DNA of 64,000 nucleotides from Escherichia coli O157:H7. Its GTDB lineage: Bacteria > Pseudomonadota > Gammaproteobacteria > Enterobacterales > Enterobacteriaceae. The stretch's first letter is position 1; every line of letters starts with the position of its first letter. Location: assembly GCF_013167455.1 (NCBI RefSeq), contig NZ_CP038328.1; one strand, given 5' to 3'. Of the stretch, positions 1-3,000 are shown piece after piece. Position numbers: made by a program.

Positions 1-3000
1 GATGTCGATTAAACATTATGATGTTGTCAGGGCGGCGTCGCCGTCAGACCTTGCGGAAAAGCTGACACACAAACTGAAAGAGGGCTGGCAGCCGTTTGGT
101 AGTCCGGTGGCCATAACCCCTTATACCCTGATGCAGGCGATTACAGCAGAAGGTGATGTGGTGGTCAGTGGTGCAACTGAGCCGGATTGGTACTACGTCA
201 TCGTACTGGCCGGGCAGTCCAATGCCATGGCTTACGGTGAAGGGCTTCCGCTGCCGGATTCATACGATGCTCCGGATCCGCGCATTAAACAGCTGGCGCG
301 CCGCAGTACAGTGACGCCGGGTGGGGCTGCCTGCAGATATAACGATATTATTCCGGCCGACCACTGCCTGCATGATGTGCAGGATATGAGTACGCTGAAT
401 CATCCGAAGGCAGACCTGAGCAAAGGGCAGTACGGCTGTGTCGGCCAGGGGTTACATATTGCCAAAAAACTGCTCCCGTATATCCCGAATAACGCGGGGA
501 TCCTGCTGGTACCATGCTGTCGTGGTGGTTCGGCATTTACCCAGGGCGCGGAGGGGACATTCAGCGAGTCCACGGGGGCCAGCCAGGATTCGGCACGCTG
601 GGGGGTGGGCAAGCCGTTATATCAGGATCTGATTTCCCGCACAAAAGCGGCATTGCAGAAAAATCCCAAAAACGTTCTGCTGGCCGTCTGCTGGATGCAG
701 GGAGAGTTTGACATGAGCGCCGCCACCCACGCACAGCAACCTGCGCTGTTTACAGCCATGCTGGCACAGTTTCGTGCTGACCTCTCCGTGTTTAACGCGC
801 AGTGCCATGGTGGCAGTGCTGCAGATGTGCCGTGGATTTGTGGTGACACGACGTATTACTGGAAAAATACATACGCTACCCAGTACGACACCGTGTACGG
901 CGGGTATAAAAACAGGGAGAGTGAGGGCGTTTATTTTGTGCCCTTCATGACAGACGGTAACGGCGTCAATACCGCCACTAACGCGCCGGCAGAAGATCCG
1001 GATATTCCGGCATCAGGATATTACGGTGCGGCATCGAGAACGAATGGAAACCAGGTATCATCAAACCGCCCGACACATTTCAGTTCATGGGCGCGCAGGA
1101 GCATTATTCCGGATCGTCTGGCAACCGCTATTCTGAACGCAGCCGGGCGCACCTCAGCCTTCATCAGTGGTAAGGCACCGGAAATCAAACCCTCGCCCGG
1201 CGGCAACACGCCATCGGGTCCGTCTGCAGATACGTCCGTTCGCACAATCTCCCTGCTGCCGGCAGCCGGAGAGGCTGCTGCGCAGGGCTGGAGCATTAAG
1301 GATGGCGGAATTCAGTTGTCAGATGGTGTATTTAAGATCACCAGGCAGAGCAATAAAACCTGGTCCCTGACGCATCCGGTGGATGACGCAATTACCCTGC
1401 TGACACAGGGCGGCAGACTGACCTGTAAGTTCCGCCTGTCAGGCGCGCTGACCAACAATCAGTTCGGGCTGGGGATTTATCTGTATACGGATGCTCCCGT
1501 TCCTGATGGTGTGGCGATGACGGGTACCGGTAATCCGTTCCTGATGTCGTACTTTACTCAGACCACTGACGGCAGAGTGAATCTGATGCATCACAGGAAA
1601 GCCGGAAACACGAAGCTGGGGGAGTTCGGCGATTACGGTAACGACTGGCAGACGCTGGAGCTGGTGTTCACCGCCGGCAGTGCCACGGTTACTCCGAAAC
1701 TGAATGGAGTGGCTGGCCCGGCATTCCAGGTTATAAAAGACAGTCTGACACTGGGACTGAATGCGCTGACGCTGACGGATGTTACAAAAAATGCAGCGTA
1801 TGGCGTTGAGATAGAAAGTCTGGTGCTGGAGATAAATGCACCGGCAGCATAATAAAAAAAGAGCCAGCGACTGACCTGAAAGAAGACGCTGGCTAAAAGG
1901 CCTTATATGTTTGTAGAGACTTATTTTTCACAGACAGCAATGATGCCTGTCAATATATTATCAATATGCGGATTGTTTCAGTTACAGATGCTTTATTAAG
2001 GAAAAAAACAGCCAGCACTGACTTTCGGTGGAGAGGTGCTGGCTCAGAAGGATAGTTGGATTTCACATGATACTTATGCCTGGCGGTATATTTTCTGACA
2101 GACAGTGACGGGTGTTGTCAAGATATTGTGTCATTTATAACCTGAATCAGGGGGTGGCCGGAATGTTATCTGGCATTTTTAGCAGAGCCTGAATGCCATA
2201 ATCACGGCTCCCGGCGTTGGCCGTCAGTGGGTGACACTGGCGGCTTTTTTGTTTTTCTTTACTTTCATTTTCTGTCGGCGGTGACGGAGACATACATCAG
2301 ATGGAAAAAATCACAACGGGTGTGTCATACACCACGTCAGCGGTGGGGACGGGATACTGGTTACTGCAGCTGCTGGACAAAGTCTCTCCGTCCCAGTGGG
2401 TGGCGATAGGCGTGCTGGGGAGTCTGCTGTTTGGGCTGCTGACATATCTGACGAACCTGTATTTCAAGATTAAAGAAGACCGGCGTAAGGCGGCGCGGGG
2501 AGAGTAAAGTGATGAAGAAAAAATACGAACTGGTTGTTAAAGGGATAAATAATTACCCGGATAAGATTACTGTTACTGTGGCACCGGAAATTGGTGGGTA
2601 TCCGTCACTGTTGTTGCCAGATGTGGCGATTAGTCTTGACCGTACTGAAGGTGCCACGCTGGAGTTTTACGAAGCTGAGGCGAAAAAGCAGGCGAAGCAG
2701 TTTTTCATGGATGTTGCTGCCGGGTTATGTGAAGGGGATGGTCCGTTACCGGAAAAGCGTCCCGTAATTTTAGAGGCGCAGGATGTGTTGATAACCTACA
2801 GAGGAAAACTACCGGGAATAATTACGGGTTCTCTGAAGACTCCACCGCTGGCCTGAAGACTTAACATATCCAGGGATTTGAAATCGATAAACCCTGATAA
2901 ATATCCATGAACGCAAAAATCAGATACGGCCTGTCGGCTGCCGTTCTGGCGCTGATTGGTGCAGGGGCGTCTGCGCCTGAAATCCTCGACCAGTTTCTGG

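What the first reader, a model, noticed from the sequence alone, without database searches (positions are those of the whole stretch)
1853..2160. Two imperfect tandem copies of a hairpin-containing module downstream of the esterase gene
Two ~150-bp units each begin with an A-run, then a GC-rich hairpin (gccagcgactg.../gccagcactg...), then a related AT-rich segment (cacagacagcaatgatgcctgtcaatat... versus ctgacagacagtgacgggtgttgtcaagat...). The hairpins have the A-run on the 5' side, so they would work as terminators only for minus-strand transcription. They may be transcription insulators protecting the late operon or small structured RNAs.
Basis: seen in the sequence. Interest (0 to 1): 0.3.

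Follow-up and report, generated by a model that had tools for sequence, protein, structure and literature searches.

The report
Tandem PasA-family prophage small RNA genes
The two repeated hairpin modules are back-to-back copies of an already described prophage small-RNA gene (PasA/EcOnc51 and its EcOnc52-type neighbour), read from the opposite strand to the phage late genes, so the finding is real but mostly known.

Summary
Window 1853-2001 and 2002-2160 are two diverged tandem copies of one module, well above chance.

Read on the minus strand, each module has a promoter-like block (perfect -35 TTGACA), a short body, and a GC-rich hairpin followed by a run of 7 U.

Unit 2 (2086->2002, minus strand) is the Hfq-dependent small RNA PasA:
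- The published northern probe matches window 2011-2035 exactly.
- The intergenic region is identical to Sakai prophage Sp12, where the Hfq-binding peak EcOnc51 lies.

Unit 1 (about 1918->1853, minus strand):
- It carries the terminator at which the published 236-nt "minor" PasA isoform ends.
- It corresponds to the Hfq peak EcOnc52.
- A covariance model built only from PasA and PasC finds it on the minus strand at E = 6e-5.

The locus is already known. One modest point appears new. A 2026 survey says pasA copies do not arise by tandem duplication, yet the pasA locus itself holds a diverged tandem relative. PasC looks like a unit-2 promoter and body joined to a hairpin of the type found in the unit-1 position. 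Whether unit 1 fires from its own promoter is unresolved.

The parts
2..1852 (+). SASA/NanS-p-type sialate O-acetylesterase gene (616 aa); left flank of the locus
   Evidence: ORF list. Annotated as SASA family carbohydrate esterase in matching records.
1820..1830 (+). CTGGTGCTGGA in the esterase 3' end, complementary (8 nt, GGTGCTGG) to the PasA seed
   Evidence: Sequence. The same site in the EPEC esterase genes E2348C_0688 and E2348C_1246 is listed among PasA RIL-seq target motif sites (PMC8550237 supplement).
1853..1860 (-). U-tract of the unit 1 terminator (UUUUUUUA on the RNA), directly abutting the esterase stop codon
   Evidence: Sequence. The 3' end of the 236-nt minor PasA isoform maps here.
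1862..1894 (-). Hairpin 1: terminator stem-loop of unit 1, 8-10 bp stem with 5' arm AGCCAGCGUC on the RNA
   Evidence: Inverted repeat I11. The 48-nt minus-strand fold gives -16 kcal/mol, z = -5.5. Annotated as a minus-strand terminator in phage 434. RIL-seq chimera ends at EPEC 743267-743294 map here.
1853..1918 (-). Putative unit 1 small RNA of about 66 nt, the EcOnc52-type paralogue; the 5' end is inferred
   Evidence: The Sakai Sp4 Hfq-CRAC peak EcOnc52 (1181998-1182075, minus strand) maps to window-equivalent 1919->1842. The covariance model hit at 1854-1933 on the minus strand has E = 6e-5.
1923..1958 (-). Unit 1 promoter-like block: AATATATTGACA (-35 at 1953->1948), then CTGTCTGTGAAAAAT
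   Evidence: Pattern match at 1930-1953, minus strand. Aligned with the unit 2 block. Nearly invariant in 45 IMG/VR copies, though those were selected by this same pattern.
2002..2008 (-). U7 tract of the unit 2 (PasA) terminator
   Evidence: Sequence. The major PasA 3' end (EPEC 743415) maps to window 2002.
2010..2044 (-). Hairpin 2: PasA terminator stem-loop with a 9-bp stem. Its RNA 5' arm holds the published seed GCCAGCACCU (window 2043->2034)
   Evidence: Pattern match. The 49-nt fold gives -16.3 kcal/mol, z = -2.8. The northern probe GCCAGCACTGACTTTCGGTGGAGAG matches window 2011-2035 exactly. Covariation: 3 of 9 pairs show changes on both sides.
2002..2086 (-). PasA-family small RNA, 85 nt; identical to the Sakai Sp12 copy under EcOnc51 and probably the 'PasA-2' variant
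   Evidence: Mapped from EPEC coordinates 743499->743415. 74 of 85 nt identical to EPEC PasA, with the 3' 43 nt identical. The intergenic region is identical to Sakai Sp12.
1853..2086 (-). Read-through ('minor', 236 nt in EPEC) PasA isoform spanning both units
   Evidence: PMC8550237 Table S6 gives the minor 3' end as 743264, mapped through alignment A1.
2087..2126 (-). Unit 2 promoter-like block: AATATCTTGACA (-35 at 2121->2116), 17 nt, then TCAGAAAAT; the PasA 5' end lies 7 nt after TCAGAA
   Evidence: Pattern match at 2098-2121, minus strand. The PasA and PasC 5' ends both follow ...TCAGAAAATGTA. Substitutions among 78 copies fall in the spacer and discriminator, not in TTGACA.
2219..2255 (+). 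Plus-strand intrinsic terminator just upstream of the holin gene. It is not part of the repeat but completes the intergenic architecture
   Evidence: Terminator scan: 11-bp stem followed by TTTTTTGTTTT. Annotated as a terminator in phage 434. A counterpart is the only element in the short Stx2-phage intergenic region.
2301..2507 (+). Class II holin S (68 aa); right flank
   Evidence: ORF list. Annotations.

Best explanation
The interval holds two tandem, diverged copies of one small-RNA transcription unit. Both are read on the minus strand, antisense to the phage late operon, in the moron region between the NanS-p-type esterase gene and the holin gene of a lambdoid prophage.

Unit 2:
- RNA polymerase starts near 2086, downstream of a perfect -35 TTGACA at 2121-2116.
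- It transcribes leftwards for 85 nt and stops at hairpin 2 plus U7 (2044-2002).
- The product is PasA (EcOnc51 in EHEC). In EPEC this small RNA depends on Hfq for stability.
- In EPEC it forms RIL-seq chimeras with many mRNAs. The seed inferred there is GCCAGCACCU, in the 5' arm of its own terminator. One site complementary to that seed lies in the 3' end of the adjacent esterase gene (1820-1830).

Unit 1:
- A fraction of polymerases read through hairpin 2 and stop at hairpin 1 plus U7 (1894-1853), right against the esterase stop codon. This gives the 236-nt minor isoform.
- Unit 1 keeps the same promoter-like block (-35 at 1953-1948) and a related but distinct 5' arm, GCCAGCGUC.
- It probably also makes its own RNA of about 66 nt (EcOnc52-type).

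Shown by published experiments on identical or near-identical sequence: strand, ends, Hfq dependence and chimeras for PasA, and Hfq binding over both hairpins.

Shown here: homology of the two units, the conserved and covarying stem, the genomic context, and the range of locus architectures.

Inferred: that the TTGACA blocks are the promoters, and that unit 1 is transcribed independently.
For: Identity of unit 2 with PasA:
- PMC8550237 Table S6 places PasA on the minus strand of NC_011601.1, 743499->743415 (major) or 743264 (minor), between E2348C_0688 (esterase) and E2348C_0689 (holin).
- Its northern probe is window 2011-2035.
- Alignment of the EPEC locus with the window maps these ends to 2086, 2002 and about 1852.
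- Northern blots in that paper show Hfq-dependent stability.

Link to EHEC: the window's intergenic region is identical to Sakai Sp12. The Hfq-CRAC peaks EcOnc51 (Sp12) and EcOnc52 (Sp4), both flagged as having a Rho-independent terminator, map over hairpin 2 and hairpin 1 respectively.

Unit 1 RNA and Hfq: RIL-seq chimeras end at EPEC 743267-743294, which is hairpin 1. They occupy the RNA2 position in 100% of fragments.

Homology of the two units: shuffle tests, the covariance model hit at E = 6e-5 on the minus strand only, and the shared TTGACA-N10-CTGTCTGT block.

Stem support, from 32 distinct sequences in 80 IMG/VR loci:
- 95% of cells are paired.
- 3 of 9 pairs carry compensatory changes (C-G/U-A, G-C/A-U).
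- 0 of 500 shuffles reach the covariation score.
- G.U wobbles number 11 on the minus strand, against 1 A.C.

Other support:
- Phage 434's curated record marks both hairpins as minus-strand terminators.
- PasA-type units are followed by unit 1 in 40 IMG/VR loci.
Against: - No expression data exist for this window itself.
- The -10 regions are poor matches to consensus (TCAGAA/CAGAAA; GAAAAT only with a 20-nt spacer). The promoter scan did not report them.
- The 2026 preprint states that northern blots suggest the PasA 5' end is made by cleavage of a longer transcript. The TTGACA block may therefore not be the promoter.
- Unit 1 is identical in Sp4 and Sp12, so CRAC reads under EcOnc52 cannot be assigned to one copy. 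They could come from the read-through isoform. CRAC peak edges are also imprecise: EcOnc51 is offset by 20-28 nt from the PasA ends.
- The whole 85-nt RNA folds no better than shuffles (z = -0.5); only the terminator is structured.
- The IMG/VR loci were selected with the promoter pattern, so its conservation there is partly circular.
- No Rfam family exists to cross-check against.
Confidence: 0.85

Rival explanations
1. Unit 1 is not a gene in its own right. It is a decayed duplicate whose only working part is hairpin 1 with its U-tract. That element acts as a fail-safe terminator for PasA read-through and stops antisense transcription from entering the esterase gene. All unit 1 RNA signal comes from the 236-nt isoform or its 3' fragments.
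For: - The authors of PMC8550237 treat the unit 1 signal as the 'minor' PasA isoform.
- Unit 1 has a 15-nt deletion just downstream of the -10-like region and a shorter body.
- EcOnc52 reads cannot be assigned between identical copies.
- The 2026 survey did not recognise it as a pas gene.
Against: - The -35 TTGACA, the AATAT upstream of it, and CTGTCTGTGAAAAAT are retained exactly. The body has diverged to roughly 50% identity.
- In Sakai Sp4 an IS629 insertion removes unit 2, yet an Hfq peak of about the same area as EcOnc51 is listed there. Its 5' edge is at window-equivalent 1919, next to the predicted start at 1918.
- Unit 1 survives alone on plasmids and next to IS elements.
Confidence: 0.45
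2. The hairpins are purely transcription terminators or insulators of the late region and have no RNA product of consequence.
For: - Both are good minus-strand intrinsic terminators, and phage 434 annotates them only as such.
- Hairpin 1 sits exactly at the end of the esterase gene.
Against: - The RNA ending at hairpin 2 is abundant, stabilised by Hfq, and among the most connected small RNAs in EPEC RIL-seq.
- The 5' arm of the stem is conserved as sequence (the seed), beyond what pairing alone requires.
- Neither hairpin has a U-tract on the plus strand, so neither can insulate the lysis genes from rightward transcription. A separate plus-strand terminator at 2219-2255 is placed to do that.
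Confidence: 0.05
3. A type I toxin-antitoxin-like pair. The 30-codon plus-strand ORF at 1907-1999 (MFVETYFSQTAMMPVNILSICGLFQLQMLY, with a weak AAGG 6 nt upstream) would encode a small hydrophobic peptide, controlled by the overlapping antisense RNAs.
For: - The ORF exists, is partly hydrophobic, and lies fully antisense to the read-through isoform.
Against: - No Pfam or NCBIfam match.
- The plasmid copy carries an in-frame stop, and EPEC has a Leu->Pro change.
- Single-unit loci (PasC-type and L040-type) lack the ORF entirely yet keep the small RNA.
- No published evidence.
Confidence: 0.03
4. The similarity of the two units is due to chance; they are two unrelated terminators.
For: - Tandem Repeats Finder finds nothing.
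- Overall identity is only about 56%.
Against: - 0 of 1000 shuffles reach the alignment score.
- The covariance model hit has E = 6e-5.
- The shared composite motif occurs twice where 0.03 is expected.
- Mosaic intermediates link the types, for example L085, which has a unit 1 body with a PasC-type hairpin.
Confidence: 0.01

Closest known systems
PasA (E2348CN_0003), an Hfq-dependent prophage small RNA of EPEC E2348/69 (Pearl Mizrahi et al. 2021, PMC8550237); its EHEC counterpart is the Hfq-CRAC peak EcOnc51 (Tree et al. 2014, PMC4104026)
   Same: - Same position (esterase < sRNA > holin) and same antisense strand.
- Same terminator, seed and probe sequence; the 3' 43 nt are identical.
- Same upstream TTGACA block.
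- The window's intergenic region is identical to Sakai Sp12, which carries EcOnc51.
   Different: The first 42 nt differ from EPEC PasA at 11 positions. This matches the 'PasA-2' description in the 2026 preprint, but the variant name could not be verified because those sequences appear only in figures.
PasC (E2348CN_0005), in EPEC prophage PP5 and phage 2B8
   Same: - Same family; the 2026 preprint infers a common ancestor with PasA.
- The promoter block and body are nearly identical to unit 2.
- The stem GCCAGCG/CGCUGGC and the preceding UUUUA are identical to unit 1.
   Different: PasC loci have a single unit placed directly after the esterase stop codon (19 of 19 IMG/VR loci). The PasC loop (CCUUCAGAGUGGG) differs from the window's hairpin 1. 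One two-unit locus, L085, carries that PasC-type hairpin in the unit 1 position.
EcOnc52 (Sakai prophage Sp4), together with the 'pasA.E2348C_0688.IGR' / minor 236-nt PasA isoform
   Same: Both cover exactly the unit 1 hairpin and U-tract, with sequence identical to the window across 1853-1978.
   Different: Neither paper describes unit 1 as a separate paralogous gene with its own promoter-like block. In Sp4, unit 2 has been replaced by IS629.
Tandem duplicated small RNAs such as OmrA/OmrB and PrrF1/PrrF2 (cited in the 2026 preprint)
   Same: Two adjacent, same-strand, diverged copies. Each has a terminator, and a read-through product spans both, as PrrH does for PrrF1-PrrF2 (the PrrH comparison rests on my own knowledge).
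   Different: The Pas units are far more diverged in the body. They sit in a phage moron site, and independent expression of the downstream copy has not been shown.
Anti-sRNAs AgvB and AsxR, and the convergent small-RNA pairs in lambdoid moron sites (Tree et al. 2014)
   Same: Hfq-bound small RNAs encoded downstream of PR' in the late-region moron sites of Stx-type prophages.
   Different: There is no sequence relationship and no Rfam hit. The Pas units form a tandem same-strand pair rather than a convergent pair. No anti-sRNA activity is known for them.

Membership tests
PasA/PasC prophage small-RNA family (unit 2) | Sequence match to the experimentally validated PasA, including the northern-probe target and the seed GCCAGCACCU | tested here: met
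   The probe matches window 2011-2035 at 25 of 25 positions. 74 of 85 nt are identical overall and 43 of 43 in the 3' half, which includes the seed.
PasA/PasC prophage small-RNA family (unit 2) | Location between the SASA esterase and class II holin genes, on the opposite strand | tested here: met
   Esterase at 2-1852 (+), small RNA at 2086->2002 (-), holin at 2301-2507 (+). This matches the '> < >' arrangement in Table S6.
PasA/PasC prophage small-RNA family (unit 2) | [quoted passage not shown] | tested here: met
   9-bp GC-rich stem plus U7. The fold gives -16.3 kcal/mol, z = -2.8. Covariation at 3 of 9 pairs.
PasA/PasC prophage small-RNA family (unit 2) | Expressed and Hfq-bound in the host carrying this window | not testable with these tools
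   Indirect evidence only: the identical sequence in Sakai Sp12 lies under the Hfq-CRAC peak EcOnc51.
PasA/PasC prophage small-RNA family (unit 1) | Statistically supported homology to family members on the same strand | tested here: met
   The covariance model, built from PasA and PasC only, scores 29.8 bits (E = 6e-5) on the minus strand. The plus-strand hairpin alone scores 14 bits, E = 0.24.
PasA/PasC prophage small-RNA family (unit 1) | 3' stem-loop plus poly-U tract | tested here: met
   8-10 bp stem plus U7. The fold gives -16 kcal/mol, z = -5.5. The stem is identical to PasC's.
PasA/PasC prophage small-RNA family (unit 1) | An independent transcript with its own promoter | tested here: inconclusive
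   For: a conserved TTGACA-N10-CTGTCTGTGAAAAAT block, and the EcOnc52 peak in Sp4 where unit 2 is absent. Against: reads cannot be assigned between identical copies, and the published interpretation is read-through.
Rho-independent (intrinsic) terminator | GC-rich stem followed immediately by a U-tract on the transcribed strand | tested here: met
   Met on the minus strand for both hairpins. Not met on the plus strand, where AAAAGG or CAGAAGG follows the stem. The loops (11-17 nt before inner pairing) exceed the scan's 3-8 nt limit, so the scan flagged only a sub-hairpin.
Rfam-curated RNA family | Match to any Rfam 15 covariance model | tested here: not met
   No hit in 1853-2300 at E <= 1. 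No Rfam model matched at this threshold, and RefSeq records leave the region unannotated.
Type I toxin-antitoxin | A conserved small hydrophobic ORF opposite the antisense RNA | tested here: not met
   The ORF at 1907-1999 has no family match. It is interrupted in a plasmid copy and absent from single-unit loci.

The most novel reading that the evidence does not exclude
Three linked claims:
- Unit 1 is a third, so far unnamed, independently transcribed member of the PasA/PasC family, about 66 nt long with its own seed variant GCCAGCGUC.
- The pasA locus is therefore a tandem two-gene array that also yields a dual-seed read-through RNA.
- PasC-type genes arose by deletion or recombination between the two hairpins of such an array.

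This contrasts with the 2026 survey's statement that pasA copies are not products of tandem duplication.
Probability: 0.4. Interest if true: 0.3.

Novelty: already known. Interest (0 to 1): 0.2.

Why it matters
The locus itself is not new. PasA-family RNAs are among the most abundant Hfq partners in EPEC and EHEC. In RIL-seq they contact virulence-gene mRNAs (LEE, bfp).

What this analysis adds is architectural:
- About 690 of 5426 complete E. coli genomes carry the element, usually in 3-4 copies, and the matching RefSeq records list no feature over it.
- The common form is a two-unit tandem array whose downstream unit was missed by BLAST-based surveys.
- Recognising that array explains three things together: the 236-nt 'minor' isoform, the EcOnc52 peak, and the mixed make-up of PasC.

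Practical consequences would be an Rfam or annotation model covering all unit types, and care with read mapping because the copies are identical across prophages. None of this changes the understanding of phage or small-RNA biology in a major way.

Tried and rejected
1. Pattern error. Searches used 11 N instead of 10 between TTGACA and CTGTCTGT. One of these was the session's only genome-contig scan. Every hit was a chance match in unrelated organisms, so the scans say nothing about taxonomic spread and the genome scan was wasted. The corrected pattern was run on the window and on IMG/VR.
2. Tandem Repeats Finder at minimum score 30 found nothing; the copies are too diverged and gapped.
3. Rfam at E <= 1 gave nothing in the region. 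The only hits were spurious eukaryotic families elsewhere.
4. The RNA duplex scan of both small RNAs against the esterase mRNA gave implausible energies and structures and did not separate signal from background. It was discarded. The seed-target statement rests on direct 8-nt complementarity and on the published RIL-seq motif.
5. The attempt to map Sakai EcOnc10 into the window failed, because the window matches Sp12 (98%) only over its first 4.9 kb.
6. Single substitutions as strand evidence: one plasmid copy has a G.U on the minus strand (L008) and another has one on the plus strand (L010). The two cancel out. The larger set favours the minus strand by 11 to 1, but these are few independent events.
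7. The small ORFs at 1907-1999 (+), 1950-2066 (-) and 2147-2293 (-) have no family matches and no conservation argument.
8. The simple promoter scan reported other weak sites (1931-1959 plus strand; 1981-1952 minus strand) at a rate no higher than in shuffles. These were not used.
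Full report
**Context**

The first 5 kb of the window is the late region of a lambdoid prophage. It contains a 616-aa SASA/NanS-p-type esterase gene (2-1852, +) and a 448-bp intergenic region. These are followed by a class II holin gene (2301-2507, +), a small ORF, an endolysin gene, an antirepressor gene and Rz. The intergenic region is 96-98.6% identical to phages H-19B, YYZ-2008, 434 and many Stx1a phages. It is identical to prophage Sp12 of O157:H7 Sakai. The window matches Sp12 (98%) only over about 4.9 kb.

**Checking the observation**

- Hairpin 1 pairs AGCCAGCG(A)CT (1862-1872) with AG(A)CGCTGGCT (1884-1894). 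It is preceded by T plus A7 (1853-1860), directly after the stop codon.
- Hairpin 2 pairs AGCCAGCAC (2010-2018) with GTGCTGGCT (2036-2044) and is preceded by A7 (2002-2008).

Tandem Repeats Finder reports nothing, but the relatedness is significant on three counts.
- Global alignment of the two units beats all 1000 dinucleotide shuffles by about 5 sd. The A-run plus 5'-arm block does so by about 7 sd.
- The composite block TTGACA-N10-CTGTCTGT occurs exactly twice in 64 kb, once per unit and both times on the minus strand, where 0.03 is expected.
- A covariance model built without unit 1 recovers unit 1 at E = 6e-5. It is the second-best hit in the window on either strand.

**What it is**

Published work identifies the element.
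- Pearl Mizrahi et al. (PMC8550237, Table S6) describe PasA in EPEC E2348/69. It lies on the minus strand of NC_011601.1, from 743499 to 743415 (major form, 85 nt) or to 743264 (minor form, 236 nt).
- It sits between the esterase gene E2348C_0688 and the holin gene E2348C_0689, in the orientation '> < >'.
- It was validated by northern blot and loses stability without Hfq.
- The northern probe, GCCAGCACTGACTTTCGGTGGAGAG, is window 2011-2035 exactly.

Aligning the EPEC locus to the window places three ends. The PasA 5' end falls at 2086, the major 3' end at 2002 (the U7 after hairpin 2), and the minor 3' end at about 1852-1853 (the U-tract after hairpin 1). The window copy is 74 of 85 nt identical to EPEC PasA. 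The 3' 43 nt are identical and the first 42 nt diverged. This fits the 'PasA-2' variant described by Zhu, Shabalina and Storz (bioRxiv 10.64898/2026.05.13.724894), although I could not check the name against their figures.

Table S6 also notes EHEC homologues EcOnc51 and EcOnc52 from Tree et al. (PMC4104026).
- EcOnc51 (Sakai 2237479-2237555, +, in Sp12) maps to window 2058->1982 on the minus strand, over hairpin 2.
- EcOnc52 (1181998-1182075, -, in Sp4) maps to window-equivalent 1919->1842, over hairpin 1.
- Both are flagged as having a Rho-independent terminator.

In RIL-seq, the region 'pasA.E2348C_0688.IGR' forms chimeras whose ends lie at 743267-743294, which is hairpin 1. They always occupy the RNA2 position typical of small RNAs. 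The curated phage 434 record independently marks both hairpins as minus-strand terminators. No Rfam family matches the region. The matching RefSeq records list no annotated feature under the matches, although about 690 of 5426 complete E. coli genomes carry the element, typically 3-4 copies each.

**Anatomy on the minus strand**

Aligned as minus-strand sequences, both units share the following order of elements:
- AATAT[C/A]TTGACA;
- 10 variable nt;
- CTGTCTGT;
- an A-rich -10-like segment (TCAGAAAAT in unit 2, TGAAAAAT in unit 1);
- ATAAGT.TC;
- a short body;
- a U-rich stretch;
- AGCCAGC..., the hairpin, then the U-tract.

Unit 1 has a 15-nt deletion just after the -10-like segment and a shorter body. 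The RNA-seq-defined 5' ends of both PasA and PasC fall at the C that lies 7 nt after TCAGAA, which is 17 nt downstream of TTGACA. That geometry fits a sigma-70 promoter, but the -10 hexamer is weak. The preprint also reports that northern blots suggest processing from a longer transcript. The promoter assignment is therefore an inference.

By analogy the unit 1 RNA would start near 1918 and be about 66 nt long. The 5' edge of EcOnc52 is at 1919. CRAC peak edges are imprecise, however, since EcOnc51 is offset by 20-28 nt from the PasA ends.

The two terminator hairpins are stable, each about -16 kcal/mol (z = -2.8 for hairpin 2, -5.5 for hairpin 1). The full 85-nt RNA is not unusually structured, with z = -0.5.

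**Family comparison**

With the corrected pattern, at least 120 IMG/VR contigs carry the block, mostly as two hits 168 nt apart. The model found 123 copies, 32 of them distinct, in 80 of these loci.

The 9-bp stem is well supported.
- It is paired in 95% of cells.
- Three pairs carry compensatory double changes, for example C-G to U-A in an 'L040-type' stem, GCCAGUAC/GUACUGGC.
- No shuffle reaches the covariation score.
- Wobble pairs favour the minus strand by 11 to 1, though these represent few independent events.

Locus architectures differ.
- PasA-type units are followed by unit 1 in 40 loci.
- PasC-type loci are always single units (19 of 19) placed directly after the esterase stop.
- L040-type loci are mostly single.
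- One two-unit locus, L085, has the PasC-type hairpin in the unit 1 position.

PasC therefore looks like the unit 2 promoter and body fused to a hairpin of the unit 1 position. This is the expected product of a deletion or recombination between the two hairpins. Alternatively, the array could have arisen from single-unit ancestors. Stx2 phage 86 and an ST131 prophage have only a 150-bp esterase-holin spacer. It contains no Pas unit and just a plus-strand terminator, so the Pas units belong to one lineage of late regions.

The 2026 preprint states that pasA copies are not products of tandem duplication, with the closest pair 22 kb apart. Its BLAST-based survey did not register the diverged unit 1. 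That is the one modest addition made here.

**How it most likely works**

In the lysogen, RNA polymerase initiates at unit 2 and terminates at hairpin 2 to give PasA. Hfq binds the 3' hairpin and U-tail. The inferred seed, GCCAGCACCU, lies unusually in the 5' arm of the terminator. It is complementary to the CUG[A/G]UGCUGG motif shared by the RIL-seq targets. One such site is in the 3' end of the adjacent esterase gene (window 1820-1830).

Read-through of hairpin 2 stops at hairpin 1, which also keeps antisense transcription out of the esterase gene. Unit 1 may additionally fire on its own. The plus-strand terminator at 2219-2255 is the element placed to shield the holin gene from rightward transcription in the lysogen.

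**Rivals**

- Unit 1 as a mere fail-safe terminator and decayed copy remains fully open (about 0.45).
- Terminator-only is contradicted by published RNA data.
- Type I toxin-antitoxin is unsupported: the ORF has no family match, is interrupted in one copy, and is absent from single-unit loci.
- Chance similarity is refuted by the statistics above.

**Verdict**

Interest is low (0.2). The residual novelty is the tandem paralogy and what it implies for the origin of PasC.

One error of mine is recorded. The first collection scans used the wrong spacer length and are uninformative.

Noticed in passing
window 2125-2256 (+): The stretch between the PasA promoter block and the holin gene is almost invariant across PasA-type and PasC-type loci, more so than the small-RNA bodies. 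As plus-strand RNA it folds into two stem-loop domains ending in the terminator at 2219-2255 (-44.8 kcal/mol, z = -3.05). A possible divergent plus-strand promoter, TTGTCA-15-TATAAC (2115-2141), overlaps the PasA -35. RIL-seq lists a plus-strand 'pasA.E2348C_0689.IGR' RNA that forms chimeras mostly in the RNA1 position. It could be a moron terminator or leader, or a separate RNA.
   Followed up: partly
window 1820-1830 (+) and 2034-2043 (-): The PasA seed is complementary to CTGGTGCTGGA inside the last 35 nt of the neighbouring esterase gene. The equivalent sites of two EPEC esterase genes are among PasA's RIL-seq motif sites. The small RNA may therefore act on the many nanS-p paralogues of EHEC.
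   Followed up: partly
window 6283-6347 (both strands): A long, near-perfect palindrome of about 63 nt (CAGGGTCCGACATGAAA...TTTCATGTCGGACCT) produced spurious microRNA-family hits on both strands in the Rfam scan. Its function was not examined.
   Followed up: no
L005 (Sakai Sp4) 831-1516; L050 and L055 (IMG/VR); L004 (EPEC PP5) 2466 onward: IS elements repeatedly hit this intergenic region. IS629 cuts between unit 1 and unit 2 in Sp4. Insertions of about 1.3 kb separate the two units and truncate the 3' arm of hairpin 2 in L050 and L075; these probably correspond to the terminator-less 'PasA-3' of the 2026 preprint. ISEc13 sits right after the plus-strand terminator in PP5.
   Followed up: partly
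L008 (plasmid pRM8426, O26) 474-720; L010 (plasmid pZ1323HEC0423-2) 601-680: Isolated remnants of unit 1 (with the last ~90 nt of the esterase gene) and of a PasA-like unit occur on large plasmids, flanked by IS elements and away from any lysis cassette.
   Followed up: partly
window 3711-4280 (+): A 189-aa antirepressor-like gene sits inside the lysis cassette between the endolysin gene and Rz, as in Sakai Sp12 (ECs_2258). This is an unusual place for such a gene.
   Followed up: no
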